32,000 nt of DNA from Candidatus Methanoperedens sp. (GCA_041494705.1 JBGQBI010000003.1:240001-272000); one strand, 5' to 3'; shown: positions 17,467-30,715, counted from the stretch's first letter. The notes: generated by a model not told the origin, from the letters alone. Program-made: numbers and translations.

Positions 17467-18231
17467 ATGATTAACCTTTACTTTATCGGCTCGGCAGGGA
17501 GCGGCAAATCCTCGCTAACAGGCGCATACATGGGATGGATGCAGAACCAGGGGTATGATGCGATTACGGTGAACCTTGACCCGGGCATTGAAAACGCGCC
17601 TTACGTTCCTGATGTGGACATCCGGGACTGGATAAAATTGCGCGACATTATGAAAGAGCATGGTGTAGGACCAAACGGGGCGCAGATTATTGCGGCGGAT
17701 ATGCTCGCCCTGAATATTAATGAAATGAAGGAGATAATCGAAAGCTTTGAAACAGAATACGTCATATTTGACACTCCGGGACAGATGGAATTATTCGTGC
17801 TGCGGCAATCTGGAAAATACCTGATCGATGCTTTTGGCGCAGATAAGTCGATAATCGGCTTTCTTTACGACCCTGTAATTTCAAGAAATCCGTCAGGCTT
17901 CATCTCATTGATGCTTCAGGCAGCTTCTGTCCAGGTGAGGTTCAACGTGCCTTTCCTCAATATTCTCACAAAATCCGATCTGCTTTCAGAGGAAGAACGC
18001 GGGAAAATATCGGGCTGGAGCAGGGATTTAATGGCACTTGACGACGCAATCAACAGCGAACGGCCCACATTGCGAAGCCAGTTGAGCATTGAGTTTCTGT
18101 CTGCCCTTAAATCATTTGGCGCAAGCCAGGATATAATTCCTGTATCATCGACTTATGGTTCTGGCATGGAAGATATTTACAATGCAGCACAGCAGATATA
18201 TTTTGGAGGCGAAGATTTGAGCAGGGATTAA
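17467..18231 (+). CDS. GPN-loop GTPase
   Basis: Motifs are the P-loop GSAGSGKSS, the GPN loop HGVGPNGA, and DTPGQMELF. Confidence 0.85.
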   Translation: MINLYFIGSAGSGKSSLTGAYMGWMQNQGYDAITVNLDPGIENAPYVPDVDIRDWIKLRDIMKEHGVGPNGAQIIAADMLALNINEMKEIIESFETEYVIFDTPGQMELFVLRQSGKYLIDAFGADKSIIGFLYDPVISRNPSGFISLMLQAASVQVRFNVPFLNILTKSDLLSEEERGKISGWSRDLMALDDAINSERPTLRSQLSIEFLSALKSFGASQDIIPVSSTYGSGMEDIYNAAQQIYFGGEDLSRD

Positions 18232-18270
18232 GGTGTTAACATAATATAAATTCCAGACGCATGTGTGCCC

Positions 18271-18840
18271 TTAAGAAGGAGACGCACGATTTACATGAAT
18301 CTGTCTAACCTTTGCCGTGCTGAAGGATTTATCCATCAAGTCGCCGATGAGCACAAAAAGTTCGATCAGCAGCAGGAATATAAAAATCACCGAGGAAGCA
18401 GATGGCGGTTGAATACCGTTAGCTGCCATCAGGTTCGCACGTATTGCCATTACGCCTCCTATGAACAACGCAAACAGGAAGCCATTAATTGTCCAGTATG
18501 CATTTTTTCCCCAGGAAAGACGCCATACGAGGAACAGTATTAGGAAAGTGAACCATATCTTAATGCTGATAACACCATTCCCGCCTGAGGTAACGTACAT
18601 GAAGCGGATAACCGGGTTAACTTCCTCCGTGACCCCCCTTATTTGCATCATGTAAGCTGAGGATATCCCATCGCCAACGCCAAATGTCAGAAATGATAAT
18701 ACAAATAAAAGCCTTTGGAGGTTTGTTACGGTTAGAAAGTATTTTATTGGCAGGAGAAATATATCGGCAAATGGGATAGGGTCAGGTTTTTTCTGTTTGT
18801 CTAAAACTTCCCCTGTAAGCGTTTTCTGTACTGTTTTCAT
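18271..18840 (-). CDS. Membrane protein, possibly DUF5658-like
   Basis: Four to five TM helices and a GDGISSAYMM...EEVNPVIRF segment are present. It overlaps the upstream DUF835 gene by 4 nt. The family call is tentative. Confidence 0.5.
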   Translation of the reverse strand: MKTVQKTLTGEVLDKQKKPDPIPFADIFLLPIKYFLTVTNLQRLLFVLSFLTFGVGDGISSAYMMQIRGVTEEVNPVIRFMYVTSGGNGVISIKIWFTFLILFLVWRLSWGKNAYWTINGFLFALFIGGVMAIRANLMAANGIQPPSASSVIFIFLLLIELFVLIGDLMDKSFSTAKVRQIHVNRASPS

Positions 18841-20195
18841 GTATTGTGTGACTTTTCAATTTCAGTGAATTCCATACCATGCTTTAGCTTTTCAAGATTT
18901 TCGCCTTTAAGTCCGGTCTGAATTATCAGGCGGCTGCCCGATGCTTGTGAAATGCTCTTTAACCCCTGAATGAATTGAAGTACACTGCCAAAGCCGTTCA
19001 CCTTTACCAATTCGTCGATACCGTCGAGCAACAAAACCGGGTTTTCCGTTTTTTTCATGAAGTTTGTGAGTACTGTGGCAAGCCGCTTCAGGTCATCAGG
19101 TTTGACGTCTCTCTCAACTGCTTCATTCGATATCCATATCATAGGAGTCGTTTTGATGTTATATTTCTCTCTAACCTGCTGTGGGAACGTTGTTGTTGCC
19201 ACAAGACCAGGTGAACCGTGTTTGACAGCATCCAGAAAGATGGGGTAGCCGTCCCCCTCTACAAGATATGTGCAGCCCGGTCTGAGGTTGTATGCGGGCT
19301 TTGAAATGAAGTTGCTTTTGACAGCATCTTTTCGTAAGGTGCAGAAAGTTACATCGGGACAATCACTGCATCCTGAATATCCATTTTCAGCTACGCATCT
19401 GTAAACCTCACAATCCCTGTACTTCTCAACATTGAATTTACAGCCTGGACAGTGTTTTTCGATAAACCCAGAACATAATAAACAGTCTGCGCCGCAAAAG
19501 GAGGTGATGGAAAGCTCTGGAATGGGCGTTATGAAAAGCCCGTAATGGTAAACTGCATACGCAAAGAAAACCCCCATTATGGCAGGCGCAAGGGTCGAGA
19601 GCGCAAGGAAATATGCGTCAAAGAACATGGGCAGTATTATGTTAATGGTAACTGCTGTCAATATTGCGATTATGGCGCCTGTCAGTATGAGCTTTGACTT
19701 CTGCCGCTCCATGTATTTACTTGCCATGTAATGCCGTAATAAAAGATAGACGCCCGCGACTGAAAAAATTGTTGTGAACAAAAAGAAATCCAGTCTTGTT
19801 CCTTGCATTGGTAAGAATACGCCTGGTTCTATACGCGATACGTCTGAGGTCCATATCAGGTACAGCAGGTAGATAGACGGTATGATGAACAGGTAGGTGA
19901 AGGGATTTTTAATGACTTTGTCTGTTTTGGTCAGTGAAAGGGCGAAAAGGACGAATAATGTGAGAGAAAGGATTATTCCGCTTAACTGGAGCTTTATGTA
20001 CAGCACTATCTCGCTTACTGAAGCGTTTTCCGAAGTTATACCCAGGTTGTAGGTTCCCACAGCCCAGATTATAAAGGCTATCATCAGGAGCGCAAAGATT
20101 TTGTTGGTGCGTTCATTCGGGTTTTTTGTAAGAACATACGTTCCAAGAGTAGTGTAGAGGAATATGGTAAACAGGGAAATTATTGCACTCAGCAT
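18837..20195 (-). CDS. Membrane sensor-like protein: N-terminal 6-7 TM region, Cys-rich module, C-terminal DUF835
   Basis: The Cys cluster is CGADCLLCSGFIEKHCPGCKF..CEVYRC..CSDCPDVTFC. The C-terminal signature is GLVATTTFPQQVREKYNIKTTPMIWISN..VLLLDGIDELVKVNGF, as I remember the DUF835 signature. Confidence 0.7.
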   Translation of the reverse strand: MLSAIISLFTIFLYTTLGTYVLTKNPNERTNKIFALLMIAFIIWAVGTYNLGITSENASVSEIVLYIKLQLSGIILSLTLFVLFALSLTKTDKVIKNPFTYLFIIPSIYLLYLIWTSDVSRIEPGVFLPMQGTRLDFFLFTTIFSVAGVYLLLRHYMASKYMERQKSKLILTGAIIAILTAVTINIILPMFFDAYFLALSTLAPAIMGVFFAYAVYHYGLFITPIPELSITSFCGADCLLCSGFIEKHCPGCKFNVEKYRDCEVYRCVAENGYSGCSDCPDVTFCTLRKDAVKSNFISKPAYNLRPGCTYLVEGDGYPIFLDAVKHGSPGLVATTTFPQQVREKYNIKTTPMIWISNEAVERDVKPDDLKRLATVLTNFMKKTENPVLLLDGIDELVKVNGFGSVLQFIQGLKSISQASGSRLIIQTGLKGENLEKLKHGMEFTEIEKSHNT

Positions 20196-20252
20196 ATCTG
20201 ATAACTCCTATGAATTTTGCTTTTTGAATGATTTGATTAATGTTACTTTTAA

Positions 20253-21716
20253 CTAAGATTTTTTGAGTGATATACCTAACCCAAGCTCGTTCCAGAGCTT
20301 ATCGATTTTTGATTTTACTCCGGTGTCCATCTTTAATACGCCCGGCCATTCCCTTTCAAAGCCCTCATCCTTTCCCTTTCGTGTGGCATCGATACCCATC
20401 TTCGAGCCAAGATTGGGGAGAGGCGAAGCATGGTCAAGCGTATCGGTTGGCGCCCTGTCAATTATCGTGACATCCGTCGCCGGGTCCATGCGCGTTGTGG
20501 CAGCCCAGAGCACCTCTCTCATATCCTGCACGTTCACGTCGTCATCAAGCACGATTATTGTCTTTGCGAACATCATCTGCCCCATTCCCCAGAGCGCGAA
20601 CATGACCTTTTTGGCATGACCAGGATACCGTTTTTTTATTGACACAATGCATAGGTTGTGGAACACGGCTTCAACAGGCAGGTTGATGTCAACGATTTCG
20701 GGAAGCTGGGCCTTCATGAGAGGGAGGAATATCCTCTCGGTGGCTTTGCCAAGATACGCATCTTCCATCGGCGGGATTCCCACAACTGTTGCATGATAAA
20801 TCGGGTTTTTGCGGTGGGTGATGCAGGTTATGTGGAACACAGGGAATTCATCTGCAAGCGAGTAATACCCAGTATGGTCCCCGAATGGCCCTTCAACGCG
20901 CCGTTCCTTTGCATCCACGTATCCTTCAAGTATTATTTCCGCACGAGCAGGCACATAGAGGTCAACAGTCTCGCATTTGACAAGCTCGACGTTCTTTTTC
21001 CGAAGGAACCCGGCGAACATCATTTCATCGATATTATCGGGCAGCGGGGCAGTGGCTGAATACACGACAGCCGGGTCGGCGCCGATGGCGACGGCGACCT
21101 CTATTTTTCCGTCTTCTGCCGCATCCGCATAATCCCGCGCGCCGTGTTTATGGATGTGCCAGTGCATGCCTGTTGTTTTGCCGTCATAGACCTGCATCCT
21201 GTACATTCCCACGTTCTGCTTCCCGGTTTTTGGGTTTTTGGTGAATACTAGAGGCAGGGTGATAAAGCGCCCGCCGTCCTCTGGCCAGCATTTCAATACC
21301 GGGAATTCATCAAGCGAAAAGCCTTCTCTTAGAATGACTTCCTTGCATGGTCCGCTGTTCACATGTTTTGGCGGGAAGGAGGTAATCTCTGCAACCTTCG
21401 GAATCATCTTGATACCTTCCCAGAGGCTTGACGGCGCTTCGAATTCCAGCAGTTTCCGGATTCTTTCGCCAATTTCATCAAGGTTGTTGACGCCAAGAGC
21501 AAGACACATGCGTTCCATTGTCCCGAATGCGTTGGCAAAAACCGGGTGCTTATAGCCTTTGACATTCTCGAATAACAGCGCAGGGCCGTTGTTTTTTACG
21601 ACCCTGTCCAGTATCTCGGTTATCTCAAGCTCGGCGCTTACTTCGGTTTTTATGCGTTTGAGCAGCCCTTTTTTCTCAAGGACTTCAATGAATTCGCGTA
21701 AATCTTTGTATGCCAC
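20253..21716 (-). CDS. ubiD: UbiD-family (prenylated-FMN dependent) decarboxylase
   Basis: The gene uses a GTG start. The N-terminus is AYKDLREFIEVLEKKGLLKRI. Further motifs are GMYRMQV, HWHIHKHGA and FGDHTGYYS. Confidence 0.9.
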   Translation of the reverse strand: MAYKDLREFIEVLEKKGLLKRIKTEVSAELEITEILDRVVKNNGPALLFENVKGYKHPVFANAFGTMERMCLALGVNNLDEIGERIRKLLEFEAPSSLWEGIKMIPKVAEITSFPPKHVNSGPCKEVILREGFSLDEFPVLKCWPEDGGRFITLPLVFTKNPKTGKQNVGMYRMQVYDGKTTGMHWHIHKHGARDYADAAEDGKIEVAVAIGADPAVVYSATAPLPDNIDEMMFAGFLRKKNVELVKCETVDLYVPARAEIILEGYVDAKERRVEGPFGDHTGYYSLADEFPVFHITCITHRKNPIYHATVVGIPPMEDAYLGKATERIFLPLMKAQLPEIVDINLPVEAVFHNLCIVSIKKRYPGHAKKVMFALWGMGQMMFAKTIIVLDDDVNVQDMREVLWAATTRMDPATDVTIIDRAPTDTLDHASPLPNLGSKMGIDATRKGKDEGFEREWPGVLKMDTGVKSKIDKLWNELGLGISLKKS

Positions 21717-21952: not shown

Positions 21953-21966
21953 AGTTATGTTTACTG

Positions 21967-22059
21967 CGTTACGGGAATATATAAATATGCCGTTACGGGA
22001 TTTTGTGGATTAAATTCCGTTACGGAATATGCACTATATGCACTAATTCCGTTACGGAA
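21967..22059. promoter_or_regulatory. Palindrome array A: four copies of CGTTACGG / TTCCGTTACGGAA
   Basis: Cores lie at 21967-21974, 21991-21998, 22018-22025 and 22050-22057. A tandem 9-bp duplication, tatgcacta, lies at 22028-22045 between copies 3 and 4. The array sits in the divergent intergenic region between the ubiD operon and the RCC1 operon. Confidence 0.8.
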
Positions 22060-22163
22060 TATGTAATTTTAAGACGATAACTTTTTATGCCTTTAATTAA
22101 TAGTTGACAAATCCCAGACTTTACTCAAATCCTCGGATTGGAGTATTGAAAAACGGTGAAAAA

Positions 22164-24371
22164 ATGGAAATTAAAAACGTTTACAGAGGGCGCGCCCTCA
22201 GGATAGCGGCAGGAATTTTGGTGATGGTTTTGTTGTTGACGGGAGGCGCGGGGGCGAAAGGCGTGGATGTTGTGGCAATAGCGCCTGCAACAGCTACACA
22301 GCCCGCATTGAGTGTTACTGTGACTCCAAGCACTTTAACAGCAGGCACAACTACACTTGTGACCTTCACGGTGACCAGTAAGATGGGTGCAGTGGTAAGC
22401 GGCGCAGCAGTCACCCTGACCGGCGCAGCCTCAGGCAGCGGGACTACAAATGCTAACGGCGCAGTAACCCTGACCGTGAATACCGCAAATGCAGGCACAA
22501 TAACGGCAACAGCGAGTAAGACAGGATTCATAAGCGGCAGCACGACCATAACCGCAACAGTGCCTGCGGTGGCAGTGTATATGCCGGTGTATATTAGTGC
22601 AATAGCCCCTGCGGCGACAGAAGTATGGGCGTGGGGAAGTAATTCCAACGGTCAGCTGGGAGACGGCACAACCACCCAGAGTTTATCCCCGGTTAAGGTA
22701 AGCGGGCTTACAGGTACCATAACAGCCATTGCCGCCGGTTATGACCATACTGTTGCCCTGAAGAACGACGGGACGGTATGGGCGTGGGGAAATAATGTGC
22801 TGGATCCGGCATGCGTCGGTACATTCGGTTGGCAGTGTGCTGGAGACGGCGCACACCCTCAGAGTTCATCCGCGGTTCGGGTAAGCTGGACTACAGGTAT
22901 TTTTACACCTGTAAGTTCGCTTACAGGCGTAAAAGCCATTGCCGTCGGTCAAGTACATACTGTTGTCCTGAAGAACGACGGTACTGTATGGGTATGGGGA
23001 GATAATAACGCCGGTCAGCTGGGAGACGGCTTAACCTATCCGATGTTCGGAGGAGCGGGTTACCCCGTTTCGAGTTCATCCCCGGTACAGGTAAGCGGGC
23101 TTACAGGTATAACAGCCATTGCCGCCGGTAATTACCATACTGTTGCCCTGATGAACAACGGTACGGTCTGGGCGTGGGGAAGTAATTCCTACGGTCAGCT
23201 GGGAGACGGCACAACTACTAATAGATTTACCCCGGTTAAGATAAGCGGGCTTACAGGTATAACAGCCATTGCCGCCGGTGAAACACATACTGTTGCCCTG
23301 AAGAACGATGGTACGGTATGGGCATGGGGAGATAATGGCTACGGTCAGCTGGGAGATGGCACATTCACCTCCCAGAGATTATCCCCGGTTCAGGTAAGCG
23401 GGCTTACAGGTATAACAGCCATTGCCGCAGGTGGAATAGATACTGTTGCCCTGAAGAACGACGGGACGGTATGGGCGTGGGGAGATAGGGTGATGTCCCC
23501 GGTTCAGGTAAGCGGGCTTACAGGTATAACAGCCATTGCCGCAGGTGGAACAGAAACCGGTGGAACACATGCTGTTGCCCTGAAGAACGACGGCACGGTA
23601 TGGGCGTGGGGATATAACGACTACGGTCAGTTGGGAGATAACACAACCATTGGTAAGAAATCCCCGGTTCAGGTAAGCGGGCTTACAAACGTAAAAGCCA
23701 TTGCAGCAGGTGGTTACCATACTGTTGCCCTGAAAGGTTCTCCTCCAACATTGAGCGTGAGTACAATCCCGGATACAACAGCAGGCACACCTGCAAGCGT
23801 GACCTTCACCGTGACGGGCGCCGGCTCTCCTGTAAGCGGCGCAACAGTCACCCTGATCGGCGCAGCCTCAGGCAACGGAACAACAGATGCAAGCGGCAAA
23901 GTTAACATAACCGTGAACGCCACCGGTGCAGGCACCATAACAGCCACAGCAGGAAAGACAGGGTTCACAGACGGAAGCACAACCATAACCGCAACAGCCC
24001 CTGCCACCACCGCAACCACACCTACAGTTACACCTGCAATAACCCCCCCAACAGGCAGCGCAACCCCCACCATCGTAACCCTTCAGGGAAAACTCACCGA
24101 CAGCGCAGGAAATCCTGTCCAGACAGGAAGCATGAACATCACAATCACCGACTCCTCAGGCGTGCAGGTATGGCAGGAAACCTTTAACGATGTCATAGAC
24201 AACGGTGTGTTCAATATTCCGCTGGGAGCTATACACGAACTCAGGCTTCTATCCGGCAGCATATACAATATGAAAGTGGCGATCGATACCAAATCCAAAA
24301 CATTCTCAACCGTTGACGTTACCTTCGGAGAAAATTTACTTGAGGGCGATGTGATAAAGTTCAAGGCGTAG
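22164..24371 (+). CDS. Secreted RCC1-repeat (beta-propeller) protein flanked by Ig-like domains
   Basis: I trimmed the start to the ATG at 22164, which follows GGTGA. The signal/TM segment is [22 protein letters not shown]1-like units of the form VWAWGxNxxGQLGDGT..[17 protein letters not shown]..HTVAL are repeated. Two similar Ig-like modules ([25 protein letters not shown]) lie before and after the propeller. Confidence 0.85.
22620..23745 (+). repeat. Intragenic tandem repeats of about 150 bp (RCC1 blades) with long identical DNA cores
   Basis: The core (a/g)taagcgggcttaca occurs six times. In several copies it is followed by an identical ggtataacagccattgccgc. Confidence 0.85.
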
Positions 24372-24373
24372 GC

Positions 24374-24721
24374 ATGCCCCGAATGCTATTCCTGCTTCTT
24401 GTTGCAGCCGTCGTAAGCTCTGGCTGCGTGGCAGAAAAAAAGGCGGGGCTAAATGAGAGCCTGCTTGATATCGCCTCCCATGAGCCCGAGGTAAGCTCGT
24501 TCATCGCCCAGAACCCTGATGCCCATCCTGATATTACAGCTCTTGCGCCTGAGACTATCGCGCAGTTATCGAAAAAGTATCCTGCGCTCTACGGCAGCCT
24601 GCCAAACAAGACGCTATATAAGCTCGAATACAAGGGCGAAAGGGGATTGCTTGTGATTGTTGACCTTGAGAATAAAAAGGTGCTGAAGTATTTCAGGACT
24701 GCCGGGGTGAGTTTGCAATGA
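24374..24721 (+). CDS. Small secreted protein or lipoprotein, function unknown
   Basis: The signal peptide has a lipobox-like LLLVAAVVSSGC. The start lies 2 nt after the RCC1 stop, and the ORF overlaps the YVTN gene start by 4 nt. Confidence 0.6.
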   Translation: MPRMLFLLLVAAVVSSGCVAEKKAGLNESLLDIASHEPEVSSFIAQNPDAHPDITALAPETIAQLSKKYPALYGSLPNKTLYKLEYKGERGLLVIVDLENKKVLKYFRTAGVSLQ

Positions 24722-26937
24722 TGAGGAAACTGAAATATGCAGTCCTTTTTTTAATAGTCATATCCTGTTTGGGTCAGGTATCAAGCGCGGCGCCATTTGC
24801 ATATATCACGAACTCTGGTAGCAACAACGTATCTGTAATAGACACGGCAACTGACACTGTTACAGCCACTGTGGAGAATGTAGATATCAGCAGTCCTTAT
24901 GCCGTTGCAGTGAACCCCACAGGAACAAAGGTATACGTGACGAACTCTGGCAGCAACACCGTCTCTGTAATTGACACAGCAACAAACAATGTTACAGCCA
25001 CCGTGCCTGTAGGAAGCCATCCTTATGCCGTTGCAGTGAACCCTAATGGAGCATGGGTATACGTGGCTAACGAGAACAGCAACAACGTATCTGTAATTAA
25101 CACAACAACTAACAGTGTTACAGCCACGGTGAATGGATTATGCATGCCTGAGGGAGTTGCAGTGAACCCCACAGGAACAAAGGTATACGTGACGAGTGGT
25201 GAATGTAGCGAGGTCTCTGTAATTGACACAGCAAATAACACTGTTACATCCACGGTGAATGTAGACAGTTATGGAGTAGCAGTGAACCCTAATGGAGCAT
25301 GGGTATACGTGACTAACGGTTACTCTAGCGGCAGAGTCTCGGTAATTAACACAACAACAAACACTGTTAAAGCCACGGTGAATGTAGGAAGCTATCCCTG
25401 GGGGGTTGCAGTAAACCCGACGGGGACAAAGGTATACGTGGCGAACTCTCACAGCAACACCGTCTCTGTTATTGACACAGCAAATAACACTGTTACAGAT
25501 ACGGTGGATGTAGGAAGCAGTCCTTATGGAGTTGCAGTAAACCCGACGGGGACAAAGGTATACGTGGCGAACCAAGTCAGCAACACCGTCTCTGTTATTG
25601 ACACAGTCACAAACACTGTTACAGACACGGTGAATGTAGGAAGCATTCCTGTCGCTTTTGGTCAGTTTATAACGGATACTACTCCGCCTGCAAGCGTTAC
25701 CAGCCTGGCAAACATCAGCTATGCATCAAACTATATCAACTGGACATGGACTGACCCCACGGATTATGATTTGTCCGGGGTAATGGTATATCTCAATGGA
25801 ACCTTCCAGACCAACGTTACTAAAGGTACGCAGCATTACAATGCAATAGGACTTAGCGCCAATACTTCTTATGAAATAAGTACACGCACTTTTGATAATT
25901 CAGGGAATATCAATCAGAGCTGGGTGAATCATACATCAAGGACAGCAGACGCTGATACCACGCCGTCTGCCAGCATCACGAACCTTACGGCCGGAAGCAT
26001 TGGGCAAACATACATAAACTGGACATGGACTGACCCCTCGGATTCGGATTTTTCTAAAGTAATGATATACCTGAACGGAGTATCCAAACCAGACGTGTTA
26101 AAAGGTGTGCAGTATTACTATGCAGGAGGACTTAGCGCCGATACTGATAATGTAATAAGTACACGCACTGTTGATAATTCCGGGAATATCAATCAGAGCT
26201 GGGTGAATCTCACATCAAGAACAACTCGGGTAACATCATCGGGCGGAAGCAGCGGTGGATATTATCCGCCTCCGACTGCCACGGCGACTGCTACAGCGAC
26301 CCCTACTCCGACGACGACTGCGCCAGTACTTCTATTGAAAACGATAACAGTCTCGCCATCGAATACATCAATTGTTGTAAATAATACAAAGACATTCACA
26401 GCATCAACATATGACCAATTCGGCAACCCGATCACCATTGTAGTGAGCTGGAGCAGCAGCAACAACTCGGTGGGCACAATTGATGCAGCCGGCGTATTTA
26501 CGGCATCAGCCCCAGGAAAAGCTACAATAACCGCAAGAAGCGGAGATGCCAGCGGGACTGCCATAGTAACCGTGACACCTGCAATGGGTTATCGTATATG
26601 GTTGTTAACGCCCCTTATATTCTCTGACATATCGCAAGTAAAAGGCTACAAAATGAGTTTTATTGCAAATCCAACTACATCGGGTTTTTCAAGAGCAGTA
26701 GGGAACTATAAAATCTCTCTAAACCTCTACAGTAGTGGTGTAGGTGGCGTATATAACAATAACAGGTACAAACTTTATCTTGTTCCTGTTCAGGCGCACA
26801 TCTCTTATTCCAATGGTATTACCGTGAATGACCCGATAACCCAGGCTCCCATAAAATCGTTTTTTTTAAATTATATATCTACCAAGATAGATAACTTGTT
26901 AAGAACGGTTGTAAATCTAATCAATTCTGTCATTTGA
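24718..26937 (+). CDS. Secreted YVTN-family beta-propeller repeat protein with two FN3-like modules, a Thr/Pro linker and a Big_2-like Ig domain
   Basis: A signal peptide is present. About 13 units of the form VAVNPTGTKVYVTNSGSNTVSVIDTATNTV occur. Two INWTWTDP modules follow, then PPPTATATATATPTPTTT, then TITVSPSNTSIVV..VSWSSSNNSVGTIDAAGVFTA. Confidence 0.85.
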   Translation: MMRKLKYAVLFLIVISCLGQVSSAAPFAYITNSGSNNVSVIDTATDTVTATVENVDISSPYAVAVNPTGTKVYVTNSGSNTVSVIDTATNNVTATVPVGSHPYAVAVNPNGAWVYVANENSNNVSVINTTTNSVTATVNGLCMPEGVAVNPTGTKVYVTSGECSEVSVIDTANNTVTSTVNVDSYGVAVNPNGAWVYVTNGYSSGRVSVINTTTNTVKATVNVGSYPWGVAVNPTGTKVYVANSHSNTVSVIDTANNTVTDTVDVGSSPYGVAVNPTGTKVYVANQVSNTVSVIDTVTNTVTDTVNVGSIPVAFGQFITDTTPPASVTSLANISYASNYINWTWTDPTDYDLSGVMVYLNGTFQTNVTKGTQHYNAIGLSANTSYEISTRTFDNSGNINQSWVNHTSRTADADTTPSASITNLTAGSIGQTYINWTWTDPSDSDFSKVMIYLNGVSKPDVLKGVQYYYAGGLSADTDNVISTRTVDNSGNINQSWVNLTSRTTRVTSSGGSSGGYYPPPTATATATATPTPTTTAPVLLLKTITVSPSNTSIVVNNTKTFTASTYDQFGNPITIVVSWSSSNNSVGTIDAAGVFTASAPGKATITARSGDASGTAIVTVTPAMGYRIWLLTPLIFSDISQVKGYKMSFIANPTTSGFSRAVGNYKISLNLYSSGVGGVYNNNRYKLYLVPVQAHISYSNGITVNDPITQAPIKSFFLNYISTKIDNLLRTVVNLINSVI
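25684..26232 (+). repeat. Tandem duplication of a 279-bp (93-aa) FN3-like module
   Basis: The string aactggacatggactgacccc occurs at 25738 and 26017. Long shared stretches include ataagtacacgcac..gataattc.gggaatatcaatcagagctgggtgaatc. Confidence 0.8.
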
Positions 26938-27009
26938 TTTAGATATGTAAAAACGGTTGAACTACCTCCTAAATAGACCTGCAAACCTCAAATCCCTTAT
27001 TTTACATCA

Positions 27010-27113
27010 CCCGTAAACTATAAATACTATAGTTCGTATATATGCGAATTGTTGTGGGCAGAAAAAAATAACTTTTTTTGCATACCACCATAATCCCCTT
27101 TCTGCCCACTAAC
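27010..27113 (-). repeat. Inverted repeat element, copy L (about 100 bp), with an internal GTGGGCAG/CTGCCCAC stem
   Basis: The reverse complement gttagtgggcagaaaggggattatggtggtatgcaaaaaaag..ctgcccac..attcgcatatatacgaac aligns to 30620-30715 at roughly 80% identity by hand alignment. Confidence 0.8.
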
Positions 27114-27134
27114 TTTCTTAATGACAAACTTGAT

Positions 27135-27226
27135 GCCGTACGGAAATTTAATAAATATATCCCGTTACGGTATTTACTAAATAAAAAATCCGTTACGGGA
27201 TAATCCGCCGAACATTCCGTAACGCA
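27135..27226. promoter_or_regulatory. Palindrome array B: four copies, one of which lacks the central base
   Basis: The copies are gccgtacggaa at 27135-27145, cccgttacgg at 27161-27170, tccgttacggga at 27189-27200 and ttccgtaacgca at 27215-27226. Spacings are 26-28 bp. The array lies directly 3' of the recombinase gene. Confidence 0.8.
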
Positions 27227-27234
27227 ATATAAAT

Positions 27235-28071
27235 TCATAGCATATCCAGCGGGCTTTTTATCTTCTTAATTTCTTCGGAAGATACTTGTGTATAAATCTG
27301 CGTGGTCTGTAAATTCGAGTGACCAAGGAGCTTCTGTATTTTCCTGATATCCACGCCGTTTTCAAGCAGGTGCGTGGCGAATGAATGCCGGAGGGTATGG
27401 ACATGGACGTCTTTTTCTATCCCGGCCCTTACTGCCGACACTTTTATCGCATGCTGTATGCCGCGCGGCGACATTTTCTTCCCATTTACTGAAAAAATAA
27501 GTCCTTTGCTATCGGCGCCTTTCTTTTCCTGGTACTCAATAAGGTCTTTCCTGAACATTTCTGAAATTATAAAGATCCTGTCCTTCGCGCCTTTACCCAT
27601 GCGCACCCACCCGATTCCATCGTTTAAGTCGAGGTCTGAGTATTTCAGGTTAATACATTCCGAAAGCCGAAGCCCTGTTGAGTATAGCAATTCGATTAAC
27701 AGCCTGTGCTTTTCATTTTTAGTATTATCAAGCAAATCTTTAATCTCTTTTCGGCTCAAGACCACAGGCAGCCTTTTCGATGCCTTTGGTGTTTTTATCA
27801 GCGACAGGTTTTTCCCCAGCATATCGGTGTAGAAAAATTTCAGTGATGCTTTTATCAACGCAATTGAAGCGTTTGACAGTGAATGGTCGGACATTTTGTA
27901 TGCAAGAAATTCCTTTATGTCGTCATCAATTATTTCTTCAGGGGATTTTTTTATATACTCAAGGAACTTGCGGTTGTAGAAAAGGTACATCTTTGAGGTC
28001 TGCTTTGAAAAACCCCGGAGTTTCAGCTCGGTCTCAAGCTTTTTTAATGTTGATGGCAGTTCACCGACCAT
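27235..28071 (-). CDS. xerA: Tyrosine recombinase, XerA/XerC/XerD-like
   Basis: An N-terminal SAM-like core-binding domain is present (LRGFSKQTSKMYLFYNRKFLEY). Catalytic motifs are GLRLSE, HTLRHSFATHLL and LLGHSNLQTTQIYTQV. At 278 aa it matches the size of archaeal XerA. Confidence 0.85.
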   Translation of the reverse strand: MVGELPSTLKKLETELKLRGFSKQTSKMYLFYNRKFLEYIKKSPEEIIDDDIKEFLAYKMSDHSLSNASIALIKASLKFFYTDMLGKNLSLIKTPKASKRLPVVLSRKEIKDLLDNTKNEKHRLLIELLYSTGLRLSECINLKYSDLDLNDGIGWVRMGKGAKDRIFIISEMFRKDLIEYQEKKGADSKGLIFSVNGKKMSPRGIQHAIKVSAVRAGIEKDVHVHTLRHSFATHLLENGVDIRKIQKLLGHSNLQTTQIYTQVSSEEIKKIKSPLDML

Positions 28072-28095
28072 AATACTCTGATTTGATTATCCGGG

Positions 28096-28105
28096 TATAT
28101 AAAAA
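28096..28105 (-). promoter_or_regulatory. Candidate TATA box for the recombinase gene
   Basis: The minus strand reads TTTTTATATA, ending about 24 nt upstream of the ATG at 28071. It abuts the dif-like palindrome. Confidence 0.45.
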
Positions 28106-28135
28106 CTGCGTATAATATATCTTATACGCAGTTTT
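28102..28135. other. Perfect 14-6-14 palindrome with dif/recombinase core-site architecture
   Basis: The sequence is aaaactgcgtataa-tatatc-ttatacgcagtttt. The arms are exact reverse complements. The inner ATAA-N6-TTAT layout resembles Xer dif sites. Confidence 0.6.
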
Positions 28136-28295
28136 AGGAATTTTTTGCGATTTTTTGATTATTTGACCGGGAAAATTAACGATATTAGCCGGAAAACCAG
28201 GAAAGTCCATGATAGGGCTATCAAATGGTTGAATGAATAACGAAGATTTGCCATAAATTAAAATAAGAGGTTTGAATAAAAATAAAATGCAGAAT

Positions 28296-28493
28296 TTCCG
28301 TAACGGAATTGTTCAAAGAATTTACTGTAACGGATTTTATTTGCTAAACCCCGTTACGGAATGATTAAGAGTCCAAAATACATGATGGATTATTGGAAAT
28401 GCATAATAATAAAGTCTATGAGTTTTTTCCGTAACGGGAATTTTGGCATTTAATTGCGTAACGGGAATTCTCTAATAAAATTGCGTTACGGAT
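28296..28493. promoter_or_regulatory. Palindrome array C: six copies arranged 3+3 around an AT-rich spacer
   Basis: Cores start at 28299, 28326, 28352, 28430, 28458 and 28484, giving spacings of 27, 26, 78, 28 and 26 bp. The extended consensus is roughly AATTYCGTWACGGRAATT. The array lies between the divergent xerA and dut genes. Confidence 0.8.
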
Positions 28494-28582
28494 TTATTAG
28501 ATTTTAGGTGTTCGGAATTTTGAAAAATTATGAATTTTTTGATTCAGCAATATTTATTCTCTCATCTTCTAATTGAGTTCTC

Positions 28583-29104
28583 ATGTCTTTACTATCCCAT
28601 GAAGAACTGATTTCCCTCATCAATCAAAAACCGCCGCTCGTGGAACAAATGATTGACCCGGATATCCAGGTTCAGCCTAACGGCATCGAATTGACGCTCC
28701 AGCGCGTGGAAATTCATGAAGGCTCAGGTTCTATAGCTTTTGACAATTCCGAAAGAAAACTCCCACAAACAAAAGCCATGGATTTTGATGCTGAAGGTTG
28801 GATTCATCTGCCCAAAGGCAGCTACAAAATCGTATTCAACGAGATAGTGAACATCCCGAAAAACATCGCAGCTATCGCAAAACCTCGCTCAAGTCTGCTG
28901 CGGTGCGGCGCGACTGTAGAAACTGCTGTATGGGATGCCGGTTACAGTGGCAGGAGCGAGAGCCTGCTCGTTGTTTTCAATGAGAACGGCTTTAAAATAA
29001 AAAAAAATGCGCGCGTTCTGCAGCTTTTGTTTTTCAGGCTGGGAGAAGAAGTGAATGAAGGCTATTGCGGAATCTATCAGAACGAGAATATCAAAAAAAT
29101 ATAA
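28583..29104 (+). CDS. dut: dUTP diphosphatase of the dCTP deaminase family (archaeal Dut)
   Basis: Motifs are IQVQPNGIELTL, AIAKPRSSLLRCG, AVWDAGYSGRSESLLVV and GIYQNEN. The length is 173 aa. Confidence 0.8.
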   Translation: MSLLSHEELISLINQKPPLVEQMIDPDIQVQPNGIELTLQRVEIHEGSGSIAFDNSERKLPQTKAMDFDAEGWIHLPKGSYKIVFNEIVNIPKNIAAIAKPRSSLLRCGATVETAVWDAGYSGRSESLLVVFNENGFKIKKNARVLQLLFFRLGEEVNEGYCGIYQNENIKKI

Positions 29105-29726: not shown

Positions 29727-30619
29727 AGGAACTATCTCTTTTTCTGGGATGCCTCATCCCGAATCGCTATCCGGGCATTGAAAAGGCGACAAAGCTTGTC
29801 CTTGATAAGCTTGAGGTAAAATGGAGCGAGTTGAAAGAAGCTTCATGCTGCCCCGCGCCAGGTGTATTTCGCTCATTTGATAAAATAACATGGCTCGCTC
29901 TTGCATCAAGGAACCTTATTCTTGCAGAGGAGAAGAACACGGATTTGCTGACGCTCTGCAACGGGTGCTTCAGTTCGCTTCTGGATGCCAACAATATCCT
30001 GAAAAACGATGCAAGTCTCAGGAACGAGGTGAATGCTCATCTTAAAAAAATAAATAAGGAATTTATGGGAACGATTGAAGTGAGGCACATAATAGAATTC
30101 CTTTACAGGGATATAGGTCCAGAGAAACTTGGTAATTCAATAGAGAAACCTCTTCCGCTGAAAGTGGCTGTCCATTACGGCTGTCATCTCCTTAAGCCCA
30201 CAAAGGACAGGAAGCTCGGGGGCGCCGAATGCCCCGTATTTTTTGATGAGCTTGTTGAGGCTACGGGTGCGACAAGCGTTCCATACGAAGGCAAAACGAG
30301 CTGCTGCGGCGCAGGTGGAGGAGTCAGGTCGGCAATGCTTGAGACTTCGTTAAAGATGACGGAATACAAACTTGAGCGGATGAAAAAAGCCGGCGTTGAC
30401 TGCATCGTGAATGCCTGCCCTTTTTGCCATTTGCAGTACGACGGCGGGCAGGTTGAACTTGCAAAAACCGGCAAGAAATATAACCTTCCTGTTATTCATT
30501 ACAGCCAGTTCCTCGGGCTTGCGCTGGGATATACGCCCGAAGATGTAGGACTCCACCTTAATGCGATTGTGAGCGCAGGATTTGAAGAAAAAATAGCGCT
30601 GATACAGAAAAAAGATTAG
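29723..30619 (+). CDS. hdrB: Heterodisulfide reductase subunit B
   Basis: Two CCG domains are present (CCPAPG..CNGC and CCGAGGG..CPFC). The N-terminus LFLGCLIPNRYPGIE is typical of HdrB. Confidence 0.88.
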   Translation: MKELSLFLGCLIPNRYPGIEKATKLVLDKLEVKWSELKEASCCPAPGVFRSFDKITWLALASRNLILAEEKNTDLLTLCNGCFSSLLDANNILKNDASLRNEVNAHLKKINKEFMGTIEVRHIIEFLYRDIGPEKLGNSIEKPLPLKVAVHYGCHLLKPTKDRKLGGAECPVFFDELVEATGATSVPYEGKTSCCGAGGGVRSAMLETSLKMTEYKLERMKKAGVDCIVNACPFCHLQYDGGQVELAKTGKKYNLPVIHYSQFLGLALGYTPEDVGLHLNAIVSAGFEEKIALIQKKD

Positions 30620-30715
30620 GTTAGTGGGCAGGAGGGGGTTGATGGTGGTTTGGAAAAAAGGTTTGTTCTGCCCACTATTCGTATATAGGCGAACATAATA
30701 TTTAAAGGTTGCGCA
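30620..30715 (+). repeat. Inverted repeat element, copy R
   Basis: The sequence gttagtgggcaggagggggttgatggtggtttggaaaaaagg..ctgcccactattcgtatataggcgaac starts immediately after the hdrB stop codon. It is the partner of 27010-27113. Confidence 0.8.

What the first reader, a model, noticed from the sequence alone, without database searches (positions are those of the whole stretch)
28102..28135. Perfect dif-like 14-6-14 palindrome placed on the promoter of the XerA-like recombinase
The sequence aaaactgcgtataa-TATATC-ttatacgcagtttt has exactly complementary 14-bp arms and a 6-bp central region. This is the geometry of tyrosine-recombinase core sites.

The inner 11-6-11 part (ACTGCGTATAA-TATATC-TTATACGCAGT) shares the GCG.ATAA-N6-TTAT signature with E. 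coli dif (GGTGCGCATAA-TGTATA-TTATGTTAAAT). By my count the left arm matches 8 of 11 positions. Fully symmetric arms fit a single-recombinase (XerA-type) system.

The site starts 31 nt upstream of the xerA ATG and touches a TTTTTATATA box. Recombinase binding there would also autoregulate the gene. A dif site adjacent to its recombinase gene is known for the XerS/difSL and XerH/difH systems. As far as I know, it is not the described arrangement for archaeal XerA.
Basis: partly seen in the sequence, partly recalled or inferred. Interest (0 to 1): 0.72.

Follow-up and report, generated by a model that had tools for sequence, protein, structure and literature searches.

The report
Lox-like recombination site beside archaeal xerA
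A perfect 34-base palindrome directly upstream of an archaeal XerA recombinase gene is almost certainly that enzyme's own DNA target (a dif-type site that closely resembles loxP); this is a known kind of system newly seen in methane-oxidising Methanoperedens archaea, with some unusual evolutionary behaviour.

Summary
Window 28102-28135 is a perfect 14-6-14 palindrome, expected about 0.00016 times by chance. It lies 30 nt from the start codon of a bona fide XerA gene (27235-28071, minus strand), and its outer bases overlap that gene's TATA box.

In 40 related Methanoperedenaceae loci the site always lies 5' of xerA. The arms change symmetrically, the inner TATAA/TTATA never changes, and the centre is always 6 bp but free in sequence. 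Each of 27 genomes showed one copy. Insertions and deletions of cargo genes end exactly at the site. This supports a XerA core recombination site of the dif type.

The site matches loxP better than E. coli dif: 27/34 overall and 22/26 in the arms, against 18/28.

Promoter autoregulation is only inferred, and in 12 loci the site sits 200-2900 bp from the promoter.

Side findings:
- The central 6 bp repeatedly flips orientation.
- Cargo genes lie between the site and a decayed promoter copy.
- A viral contig carries the same site.
- Periodic motif arrays bracket the module.
- Paenibacillus Xer-like genes carry the same palindrome.

Verdict: new member of a known kind, moderately interesting.

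The parts
28102..28135 (.). 34-bp perfect palindrome, the putative XerA core recombination site. It can be read as 14-6-14, as 11-6-11 (28105-28132), or as lox-style 13-8-13.
   Evidence: existence and chance. (conservation and arm symmetry in 40 loci). (27/34 to loxP, 18/28 to E. coli dif).
28102..28115 (.). xerA-proximal arm (AAAACTGCGTATAA on the + strand). Its outer bases overlap the TATA box, and the predicted BRE position (28104-28110) lies inside it.
   Evidence: The inner TATAA is invariant in 28 distinct sites, while arm positions 5 and 7-9 change symmetrically with the other arm. The BRE position is inferred from standard archaeal promoter geometry.
28116..28121 (.). 6-bp central (crossover) region: TATATC on the + strand, GATATA when read towards xerA.
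   Evidence: The length is invariant at 6 bp in all 41 sites and the sequence is variable. It occurs in both orientations among relatives, with 7 reverse-complement pairs among 19 spacer variants.
28122..28135 (.). Distal arm (TTATACGCAGTTTT on the + strand).
28096..28103 (-). TATA-box-like TTTATATA of the xerA promoter. 24 nt separate it from the ATG, which implies a leaderless or very short-leader mRNA.
   Evidence: Sequence. The junction CAGTTTT-TATATA is conserved in 26 of 41 related sites. Promoter function is inferred, not tested.
27235..28071 (-). xerA, a 278-aa tyrosine recombinase.
   Evidence: Pfam Phage_integrase plus Phage_int_SAM_4. NCBIfam XerA_Arch equivalog 264.8 bits, above the 220 cutoff. 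PDB 4a8e P. abyssi XerA at 1.5e-48. Catalytic R135, K160/163, H225, R228, H251 and Y260 are present.
28295..28498 (.). Array of 6-7 copies of a dyad motif (consensus AAATyCCGTWACGGrATTT), mostly 27 bp apart, on the far side of the site from xerA. It is associated with the module; its role is unknown.
   Evidence: An equivalent array lies 150-560 bp from the site in nearly all related loci, including loci with different neighbouring genes.
27137..27225 (.). Second array of the same motif (2 exact and 2 degenerate copies), immediately downstream of the xerA stop codon.
21965..22062 (.). Third array of the same motif (4 copies). In relatives it is contiguous with the 27.1-kb array; here a 4.97-kb insertion separates them.

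Best explanation
The 34-bp palindrome is the cognate core recombination site of the adjacent XerA, a dif-type site with lox-like sequence and geometry. The window comes from a Methanoperedenaceae (ANME-2d) chromosome.

Proposed mechanism: two XerA protomers bind the two identical arms. Two copies of the site, on a chromosome dimer or multimer, synapse. Strands are cleaved and exchanged at the borders of the 6-bp centre, which returns monomers.

In this lineage the proximal arm covers the BRE position and overlaps the TATA box of xerA, so XerA bound there probably also lowers its own transcription.

Shown here:
- the site exists and is not a chance feature;
- it is strictly linked to xerA;
- its arms co-evolve symmetrically;
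- the centre is invariant in length but free in sequence;
- the scanned genomes carry one copy each;
- DNA gain and loss have endpoints at the site.

Inferred only:
- XerA binding and the cleavage positions;
- the dimer-resolution role;
- autoregulation.
For: 1. The recombinase is an XerA by curated model and has a complete catalytic set.

2. In 40 related loci from metagenomes and from 27 Methanoperedenaceae assemblies, the site is always on the 5' side of xerA. It lies 19-79 bp from the start in 28 loci. This holds where the neighbouring genes differ. No other gene is consistently linked to the site.

3. The arms stay symmetric: 95.9% of cells are symmetric. Four of 14 positions change on both arms, in 19 cells, a value reached by 0 of 500 shuffles. 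The inner TATAA/TTATA is invariant. The centre is always 6 bp but takes 19 different sequences. This is the pattern expected for two identical protein-bound half-sites around a crossover region, and it meets the TAA-N6-TTA hallmark of archaeal dif (PMC11840125).

4. Each of the 27 genome assemblies gave exactly one match, and there is none elsewhere in the window.

5. There are footprints of recombination. In 12 loci a cargo gene lies between a perfect site and a decayed right arm left at the xerA TATA box. Homology to the window resumes at that right arm. L008 lacks 633 bp present in L004, and the missing stretch starts just beside the site.

6. An IMG/VR contig carries the same perfect site and a homologue of one cargo gene. 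No recombinase was found in the roughly 19 kb of it that I read.

7. The same palindrome lies 66-276 bp upstream of Xer-like genes in 27 bacterial loci. The closest known site is loxP, which also lies upstream of its recombinase gene cre.
Against: - There is no biochemical or genetic test.
- The position relative to the replication origin or terminus is unknown. The window has no Orc1/Cdc6 gene and its GC skew is uninformative.
- Symmetric arm changes would equally fit a hairpin or any dimeric DNA-binding protein.
- More distant XerA homologues (46-47% identity; L018, L019) show no such site nearby.
- Autoregulation cannot be general, because in 12 loci the intact site is far from the promoter.
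Confidence: 0.75

Rival explanations
1. The palindrome is only a transcriptional operator. XerA itself or another dimeric regulator binds it to control the xerA promoter, and no recombination takes place there.
For: The proximal arm overlaps the TATA box and covers the BRE position. The junction with TATATA is conserved in 26 of 41 sites. A dyad with a variable centre is also typical of operators.
Against: - In 12 loci the perfect site lies 203-2901 bp from the promoter, while the promoter-proximal copy decays. This is the reverse of what an operator should do.
- Insertion and deletion endpoints coincide with the site.
- No regulator gene is linked to it.
- The same site accompanies Xer-like genes in bacteria, 66-276 bp from their starts.
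- Its closest known relative is loxP.
Confidence: 0.1
2. The site is primarily the attachment or cassette-insertion site of a mobile module, an integron-like or IMEX-type platform, with XerA acting as an integrase rather than as the chromosome-dimer resolvase.
For: - Different cargo genes sit between the perfect site and a relic arm: a TIR-STAND-TPR protein, a Zn-ribbon ORF and an HNH endonuclease.
- A viral contig carries the site and a homologue of one cargo gene.
- The module occurs in different genomic contexts.
- XerA scores 209.5 bits on the integron-integrase model.
Against: - The protein passes the XerA equivalog cutoff but not the IntI cutoff (209.5 against 265).
- There is one copy per genome in 27 assemblies.
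- The surrounding genes are housekeeping: dcd, hdrBC, ubiA/D, ftsY, tgt.
- No attC-like array was seen.
- In the window itself there is no cargo.
- Mobile elements exploiting a dif site is compatible with the main explanation rather than opposed to it.
Confidence: 0.1
3. The palindrome is a nucleic-acid structure, either a bidirectional terminator hairpin or a structured RNA, and not a protein-binding site.
For: The consensus scan flags it as terminator-like, with a 14-bp stem followed by a T-run. As single-stranded DNA it folds at -12.8 kcal/mol, z = -7.9. The arms keep their complementarity.
Against: - It lies between divergent genes, upstream of the xerA TATA box, so no known transcript ends or passes there.
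- The five loop-proximal pairs are invariant in sequence rather than covarying.
- There is no Rfam match.
- Archaeal termination does not need hairpins (established knowledge).
Confidence: 0.03
4. The palindrome is a chance feature of AT-rich intergenic DNA.
For: The intergenic region is AT-rich.
Against: The expected number is 1.6e-4 per window and 0 of 100 shuffles matched. The site is conserved in 40 related loci.
Confidence: 0.01

Closest known systems
Archaeal XerA/dif chromosome-dimer resolution (Pyrococcus abyssi, Thermoplasma acidophilum, Thermococcus kodakarensis; putative sites in Haloferax and Halobacterium)
   Same: - A single XerA recombinase.
- A site built of 11-bp inverted repeats around a 6-bp centre with TAA-N6-TTA.
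- One copy per chromosome in the genomes scanned.
- In haloarchaea the putative dif also lies upstream of the xerA operon (PMC11840125).
- Conserved sequences flank dif in Thermococcales (PMC2958812).
   Different: - Here the arms are perfectly symmetric over 14 bp, whereas published sites are imperfect.
- The site is fused to the xerA promoter.
- Thermococcales dif is not next to xerA, and Sulfolobales candidates are 29-122 kb away.
- No activity data exist for this site.
- The flanks carry periodic arrays of a dyad motif.
Cre/loxP of phage P1
   Same: - A 34-bp site made of perfect inverted repeats around an asymmetric centre.
- 27/34 identity to the window site, with 22/26 in the 13-bp arms.
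- A single recombinase.
- In the P1-like E. coli plasmid retrieved here, the lox site lies about 190 bp upstream of a small ORF followed by cre.
- Its natural role includes resolving plasmid dimers (established knowledge).
   Different: - XerA is only 19% identical to Cre over 165 residues and belongs to the XerA/XerCD/IntI group.
- The context here is a chromosome with housekeeping genes, not a phage-plasmid.
Bacterial single-recombinase Xer modules: XerS/difSL, XerH/difH and XerL/dif
   Same: - One recombinase acts on both arms.
- The site is genetically linked to the gene. xerS is 'immediately adjacent' to difSL (PMC5357621), and the Coxiella plasmid site is adjacent to xerL (PMC9765430).
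- Integration of a mobile element helped to identify the Legionella dif.
   Different: - The protein is not an orthologue. XerS model scores 76 bits against a 267 cutoff, and XerH is a weak PDB hit.
- difSL has an 11-bp centre and unequal arms, whereas this site is 11-6-11 and symmetric.
IMEX elements (CTXphi, TLC, LME-1) and pdif modules of Acinetobacter plasmids
   Same: - DNA lacking its own recombinase carries a dif mimic.
- It ends up between an intact dif and a degenerate copy. The loci with cargo genes and the viral contig L146/L175 fit this picture.
   Different: - Known only in bacteria with XerCD or XerL.
- No excision or integration junctions were observed directly here.
- The cargo is one small gene, not a phage genome.
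Integron IntI/attI platform
   Same: - The recombinase gene has its site at its 5' end, and captured genes are inserted next to that site.
- IntI4 is the second-best PDB match.
   Different: - The protein is below the IntI model cutoff and matches it in two pieces, so the IntI-specific insertion is probably absent.
- No attC arrays were seen.
- The site is a simple symmetric duplex site.

Membership tests
Archaeal XerA/dif | The recombinase is an XerA orthologue with the catalytic residues R-K-H-R-H/W-Y. | tested here: met
   NCBIfam NF040815 scores 264.8 bits, above the 220 cutoff. PDB 4a8e matches at 1.5e-48 with an alignment over residues 7-271. R135, K160/163, H225, R228, H251 and Y260 are present.
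Archaeal XerA/dif | The site has two roughly 11-bp inverted repeats, a 6-bp centre and TAA-N6-TTA. | tested here: met
   ACTGCGTATAA-TATATC-TTATACGCAGT. The criterion is taken from PMC11840125 and PMC8371274.
Archaeal XerA/dif | The site is a single copy per chromosome. | tested here: inconclusive
   There was one match in each of 27 Methanoperedenaceae assemblies and one in the window. However, the scan was truncated, required exact matches, and covered draft MAGs.
Archaeal XerA/dif | The site lies in the replication-termination or late-replicating region. | not testable with these tools
   Only 32 kb plus 8-kb blocks were available. The window has no Orc1/Cdc6 gene and its GC skew is uninformative.
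Archaeal XerA/dif | XerA binds, cleaves and recombines the site, and loss of the site or of XerA gives a dimer-resolution defect. | not testable with these tools
   This needs biochemistry or genetics.
Cre/lox-type simple tyrosine recombinase system | The target is 34 bp: 13-bp inverted repeats around an 8-bp asymmetric spacer. | tested here: met
   AAAACTGCGTATA-ATATATCT-TATACGCAGTTTT. Identity to loxP is 22/26 in the arms and 27/34 overall.
Cre/lox-type simple tyrosine recombinase system | The recombinase belongs to the Cre family. | tested here: not met
   19% identity over 165 aa, pairwise E = 0.002. Cre is absent from the PDB hits at E below 1e-3.
XerS/difSL or XerH/difH module | The recombinase is an XerS or XerH orthologue with the corresponding atypical site. 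| tested here: not met
   XerS model NF003462 scores 76 bits against a 267 cutoff. XerH structure 5jjv matches only at 1.5e-14. The site has a 6-bp centre, not the 11-bp centre of difSL (PMC5357621).
XerS/difSL or XerH/difH module | The site is immediately adjacent to the recombinase gene, forming one module. | tested here: met
   30 nt separate the site from the ATG in the window. The site is linked to xerA in all 40 related loci.
Integron (IntI/attI/attC) | The integrase is an IntI that passes the curated model. | tested here: not met
   TIGR02249 scores 209.5 bits, below the 265 cutoff, in two stretches. NF011946 scores 149 against 435.
Integron (IntI/attI/attC) | There is an array of cassettes, each ending in an attC. 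| not tested
   At most one cargo gene lies between a perfect and a decayed site. No attC search was run.
IMEX (element exploiting host Xer) | An element without its own recombinase carries a dif mimic and is found integrated at dif, flanked by an intact and a degenerate site. | tested here: inconclusive
   The intact-plus-relic architecture occurs in 12 loci. Viral contig L146/L175 carries the perfect site and a homologue of one cargo gene (E = 1e-13), and no recombinase in about 19 of its 29 kb. No excision or circular junctions were observed, and the host of the contig is unproven.

The most novel reading that the evidence does not exclude
The Methanoperedens xerA-dif module may be more than a dimer-resolution site. 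The evidence does not exclude that it is an archaeal gene-insertion hotspot exploited by extrachromosomal elements that carry a dif mimic, which would be the first IMEX-like system in archaea.

Its perfectly symmetric, lox-like arms could let XerA act without regard to orientation. That would explain why the 6-bp centre is found flipped again and again.

The periodic 27-bp arrays of a dyad motif that bracket the module could be accessory or boundary elements. They might supply the directionality that archaea, which lack FtsK, must obtain in some other way.
Probability: 0.25. Interest if true: 0.75.

Novelty: new member of a known kind. Interest (0 to 1): 0.55.

Why it matters
It gives a concrete, testable dif candidate for Methanoperedens (ANME-2d), a group of uncultivated methane-oxidising archaea. 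I found no published dif for this group: a search for Methanoperedens with dif and Xer returned only incidental matches. The site could anchor analyses of replication termination and chromosome architecture in these organisms.

The system is minimal: a 278-aa recombinase and a perfectly symmetric 34-bp site that differs from loxP at only 2 of 13 arm positions. That makes it attractive for studying how Xer- and Cre-type enzymes read DNA, and possibly as a recombination tool.

If the side observations hold, they bear on an open question: how archaeal Xer systems achieve control and directionality without FtsK. The relevant observations are the flips of the central region, the cargo genes between an intact and a decayed site, the virus-borne copy of the site, and the flanking periodic arrays.

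Tried and rejected
- **Rfam.** An E-value-mode scan of 26900-28700 gave only a spurious miRNA-like hit at E = 0.67, outside the palindrome at 27049-27115. I rejected an RNA-family explanation.
- **Terminator reading.** The scan flags the palindrome, but I rejected this on context: it lies between divergent genes and upstream of the TATA box.
- **tRNA integration target.** There are no tRNAs in the window.
- **GC skew across the window.** It tracks gene orientation and shows no inflection at the site.
- **Origin hypothesis for the CGTAACGG arrays.** It is not supported. The window has no Orc1/Cdc6 gene, and the motif is a plain dyad repeated every 27 bp.
- **Exact-protein look-up (look-up of encoding contigs).** It returned only two short Logan contigs although longer ones exist, so the source genome could not be read whole.
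- **Protein homologue search.** The 120 best hits were all close Methanoperedens relatives. I therefore could not test whether Methanosarcina or other Methanosarcinales share the arrangement.
- **Published Thermococcales dif sequences.** The machine-read supplementary tables were too garbled to use. Only the Sulfolobales table was readable.
- **Integron hypothesis.** Rejected on the IntI model score.
- **Second viral-contig hit (L147).** It lacks the A/T flanks and has asymmetric arms, so I judged it a chance match.
- **K/E-rich matches to the cargo-like ORF in other viral contigs.** Apart from L175-L177, these probably reflect amino-acid composition, and I did not use them.
- **Conserved hairpin element downstream of xerA.** It shows no covariation, so I make no RNA claim.

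Full report
**1. The observation**

The window + strand at 28102-28135 reads AAAACTGCGTATAA-TATATC-TTATACGCAGTTTT. The arms are exactly complementary over 14 bp with a 6-bp centre. From base composition, 1.6e-4 such palindromes are expected in 32 kb. Only one other inverted repeat with arms of at least 8 bp and a 6-bp spacer exists in the window. None of 100 shuffles matched the 11-6-11 pattern even with three mismatches, and there is no second copy in the window.

The ORF at 27235-28071 on the minus strand starts 30 nt from the palindrome. On that strand the proximal arm runs directly into TTTTTATATAC, so a TATA-like TTTATATA (28103-28096) overlaps the outer A/T bases of the arm. The usual BRE position falls inside the arm. 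The 24 nt between the TATA box and the ATG suggest a leaderless or near-leaderless mRNA. That last point is an inference from standard archaeal promoter geometry.

**2. The gene**

The 278-aa product has Phage_int_SAM_4 and Phage_integrase domains. It passes the curated NCBIfam XerA_Arch equivalog, at 264.8 bits against a cutoff of 220. It fails the XerC, XerD, XerS and integron-integrase cutoffs. Its best solved relative is Pyrococcus abyssi XerA, 4a8e, at 1.5e-48. The catalytic residues R135, K160/163, H225, R228, H251 and Y260 are in place.

The surrounding genes are housekeeping: dCTP deaminase, HdrC/HdrB-like ORFs, UbiA, UbiD, FtsY and archaeosine TGT. XerA is 96-97% identical to proteins on contigs named Candidatus Methanoperedens, and those contigs share the dcd and hdr neighbours. 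The window therefore comes from a Methanoperedenaceae (ANME-2d) chromosome.

**3. Comparative evidence**

I gathered related loci in two ways: a protein-based scan of metagenome contigs, and a DNA-pattern scan of one genome per species. Together they gave 40 related archaeal loci.

- **Position.** The site is on the 5' side of xerA in every locus. It lies 19-79 bp from the start codon in 28 loci and 203-2901 bp away in 12.
- **Linkage.** The neighbours vary: dcd is adjacent in some loci and absent in others. Only xerA is always linked.
- **Arm symmetry.** Among 28 distinct site sequences the inner TATAA/TTATA never changes. Arm positions 5 and 7-9 change on both arms together, giving ACTGCGTATAA, ACTGTATATAA, AGTACGTATAA and AGTTCGTATAA. 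Overall 95.9% of cells are symmetric. There are 19 cells with changes on both arms, a value reached by 0 of 500 shuffles.
- **Centre.** It is always 6 bp but takes 19 different sequences.
- **Copy number.** Each of 27 Methanoperedenaceae assemblies gave exactly one match.

This is the pattern expected for two identical protein-bound half-sites around a crossover region. It meets the TAA-N6-TTA hallmark used for archaeal dif (PMC11840125).

**4. Footprints of recombination at the site**

In 12 loci the perfect site is separated from xerA by a cargo gene, while a decayed right arm remains fused to the xerA TATA box. Examples of the relic are TTAGACGGAGTTT and TTATGCAAGTTTT. The cargo differs between loci:

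| Loci | Cargo | Evidence |
|---|---|---|
| L003 | 912-aa TIR / STAND-NTPase / TPR protein | |
| L004, L007 | 186-209-aa Zn-ribbon ORF | |
| L032, L035, L061, L066, L088 | roughly 120-aa HNH endonuclease (PHROG HNH families, E about 3e-7) | |

DNA homology between these loci and the window resumes at the right arm of the palindrome. L008 lacks 633 bp present in L004, and the missing stretch starts just beside the site.

A predicted viral contig, IMG/VR UViG_3300020171_002226 (29 kb, GC 0.31-0.33), carries a perfect AAAACTGTATATAA-N6-TTATATACAGTTTT site. That site is its only DNA similarity to the Methanoperedens loci. The contig encodes a homologue of the L004 cargo ORF (34% identity, E = 1e-13). 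No tyrosine recombinase appears in the roughly 19 kb that I read.

Taken together this looks like DNA entering or leaving at the site, as with bacterial elements that exploit Xer (IMEX). It argues that the palindrome is a recombination site and not merely an operator.

**5. Comparison with known sites**

The whole-site match is 18/28.

A BLAST of the 34-mer against plasmids returned Paenibacillus plasmids and, unexpectedly, P1-like E. coli plasmids. In those plasmids the match is the lox site, ATAACTTCGTATAATATATGCTATACGAAGTTAT. It lies about 190 bp upstream of a small ORF followed by Cre, whose identity is confirmed by a 765-bit match to PDB Cre.

Against canonical loxP the window site is 27/34 identical, with 22/26 in the 13-bp arms. 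The layout is the same 34 bp, because 13-8-13 equals 14-6-14. XerA and Cre are only 19% identical over 165 residues. The resemblance therefore lies in the DNA site, not in family membership of the enzyme.

The same palindrome, AACTGCGTATAA-N6-TTATACGCAGTT, lies 66-276 bp upstream of a Xer-like gene in 27 bacterial loci. These are Paenibacillus, Ureibacillus and Acutalibacteraceae. The bacterial proteins are 25-34% identical to XerA and fall below the XerC, XerD and XerA model cutoffs. A recombinase gene preceded by this symmetric site is thus a module found in both domains.

**6. Literature**

- Thermococcales dif is not next to xerA (PMC2958812).
- The Sulfolobales candidates described as 'close' are in fact 29-122 kb away.
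- A 2025 study places putative dif sites upstream of xerA operons in Haloferax and Halobacterium, and shows that dif-flanking DNA forms chromosome domain boundaries (PMC11840125).
- Adjacency is the rule for XerS/difSL.
- In Coxiella a dif-like site lies immediately adjacent to plasmid-borne xerL (PMC9765430).
- A search for Methanoperedens with dif and Xer returned only incidental matches, and a search for Methanosarcina with XerA returned no paper that appeared to describe a dif site in that genus.

**7. Mechanism and rivals**

The best explanation is that the palindrome is XerA's own core site. Two protomers bind the identical arms, strands are exchanged at the borders of the 6-bp centre, and chromosome dimers are resolved. 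I give the site assignment a confidence of about 0.75. My confidence in the dimer-resolution role is lower, because position and uniqueness in a closed genome could not be tested.

Autoregulation by occlusion of the BRE/TATA region is plausible in this lineage, where 26 of 41 sites abut TATATA. It cannot be general, since the intact site is far from the promoter in 12 loci.

The rivals are an operator-only role, a cassette or attachment platform as the primary function, a hairpin terminator or RNA, and chance. They are weighed in the rival-explanations section. The evidence against them includes the absence of any Rfam match, the divergent-promoter context (one search read), and the failed integron-integrase cutoff.

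**8. Things seen on the way**

- **Flipping of the centre.** Read towards xerA, 14 of the 19 centre variants have their exact reverse complement in another locus: GATATA/TATATC, GATAGA/TCTATC, GGTAGA/TCTACC, TGTAGA/TCTACA, TGTTGG/CCAACA, CAAATA/TATTTG and CAGATA/TATCTG. About 0.04 such pairs are expected by chance. The flanks are unchanged, for example in L032 against L061 and in L050 against L066. In the bacterial loci the centre keeps one orientation. Template switching at a hairpin, or antiparallel synapsis by XerA on symmetric arms, could cause the flips. Neither was tested.
- **Flanking arrays.** The module is bracketed on both sides by arrays of a dyad motif, AAATyCCGTWACGGrATTT. The exact 8-mer occurs 210 times in 279 kb against 8.5 expected. 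Of 128 neighbouring gaps under 120 bp, 105 are 26-28 bp. The arrays are present even where the outer neighbours differ.
- **An insertion in the window.** Relative to L031 the window carries a 4.97-kb insertion at 22028-26997, holding RCC1-repeat and beta-propeller surface-protein genes. It splits the array region downstream of xerA.
- **A conserved element.** A roughly 110-nt element with an 11-bp-stem hairpin follows xerA at 26998-27130 and recurs at 30614-30714. It shows no covariation.

**9. Verdict**

The core interpretation, a dif-type site for the adjacent XerA, is well supported by comparison but untested biochemically. The novelty claim about adjacency is overstated. The finding is a new member of a known kind. 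The side observations listed in section 8, together with the lox-like sequence and the cargo capture, raise its interest to moderate.

Noticed in passing
window 28116-28121; related loci L022, L129, L009/L020/L040/L104/L003, L143/L008, L140, L050/L107/L012, L061: The 6-bp centre of the site occurs in both orientations relative to xerA among close relatives. There are 7 exact reverse-complement pairs among 19 variants, against about 0.04 expected, and the flanks are unchanged. In 27 bacterial loci with the same palindrome the orientation is constant. The mechanism is unknown; hairpin template switching and XerA acting in antiparallel alignment are both possible.
   Followed up: partly
L003 76-3005; L004 3143-4001; L007 3270-4001; L008 3770-4001; L032 6476-6977; L035 1144-1682; L061, L066, L088, L107, L012, L050: A cargo gene lies between a perfect site and a decayed right arm left at the xerA TATA box. 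The cargo is a TIR-STAND-TPR protein, a Zn-ribbon ORF or an HNH endonuclease. Some loci carry deleted versions whose deletion endpoints lie at the site. This resembles site-specific insertion and excision at dif (IMEX-like).
   Followed up: partly
L146 1711-1744 (= L175 11264-11297), IMG/VR UViG_3300020171_002226: A predicted viral contig (29 kb, GC 0.31-0.33) carries a perfect Methanoperedens-type 14-6-14 site. It also encodes a ligase-like protein (by eye, KYDGLR motif), an ORF that looks HNH-like by eye, and a homologue of the L004 cargo ORF (E = 1e-13). No tyrosine recombinase was found in the roughly 19 kb read. Its host is unproven.
   Followed up: partly
window 28295-28498, 27137-27225, 21965-22062; equivalent positions in nearly all related loci: Arrays of a dyad motif (AAATyCCGTWACGGrATTT) with a 26-28-bp period bracket the xerA-plus-site module on both sides. 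The exact 8-mer occurs 210 times in 279 kb against 8.5 expected. The arrays are present even where the outer neighbours differ. They may be accessory or boundary elements; the binding protein is unknown.
   Followed up: partly
window 22028-26997 (also 18230-20276): Relative to L031 (XerA 97% identical), the window has a 4.97-kb insertion carrying RCC1-repeat and YVTN beta-propeller surface-protein genes, at GC about 0.50. It splits the motif-array region downstream of xerA. A further roughly 2-kb segment is also absent from L031, L071 and L116.
   Followed up: partly
window 26998-27130 (+) and 30614-30714 (-): A conserved element of about 110 nt contains a TATA-like box, a TTCGTATATATRCGAA palindrome and an 11-bp-stem hairpin (GTGGGCAGAAA...TTTCTGCCCAC). 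It occurs twice in the window and lies downstream of xerA in many relatives. There is no Rfam family and no covariation. It may be a small RNA gene or a repeat element.
   Followed up: partly
L029 4214-4239, L070 1331-1356, L148 2501-2533 and 24 other bacterial loci (Paenibacillus, Ureibacillus, Acutalibacteraceae): The same palindrome, AACTGCGTATAA-N6-TTATACGCAGTT, lies 66-276 bp upstream of a Xer-like tyrosine recombinase gene that falls below the XerC, XerD and XerA model cutoffs. One instance is on Paenibacillus plasmid pHD01. This may be an undescribed single-recombinase module in bacteria.
   Followed up: partly
L149 2505-2538 (E. coli P1-like plasmid) compared with window 28102-28135: The window site is closer to loxP (27/34 overall, 22/26 in the arms, same 34-bp layout) than to E. 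coli dif (18/28), although XerA and Cre are only 19% identical.
   Followed up: yes
L039, L044, L053, L056, L058, L068, L077, L081, L102, L108, L123, L128, L137, L138 (Oscillospiraceae and relatives): A longer palindrome, CAAAACCTGCGTATAAC-N4-GTTATACGCAGGTTTTG, is conserved across gut Clostridia, with no recombinase gene in the 8-kb blocks fetched. Its nature is unknown; an operator, a terminator or a chromosomal Xer site are possibilities.
   Followed up: no
L151-L174 (IMG/VR contigs, GC about 0.40, 47-90 kb): About 20 viral contigs, many from one sample, carry AAAAGTACGTATAA-CAAACA-TTATACGTACT or AAAAGTTCGTATAA-CAAACA-TTATACGAACT within conserved flanks. These are the two minority arm variants also seen next to xerA in L004/L008 and L010/L011. 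No recombinase was found in the fetched stretches, and the host is unknown.
   Followed up: no
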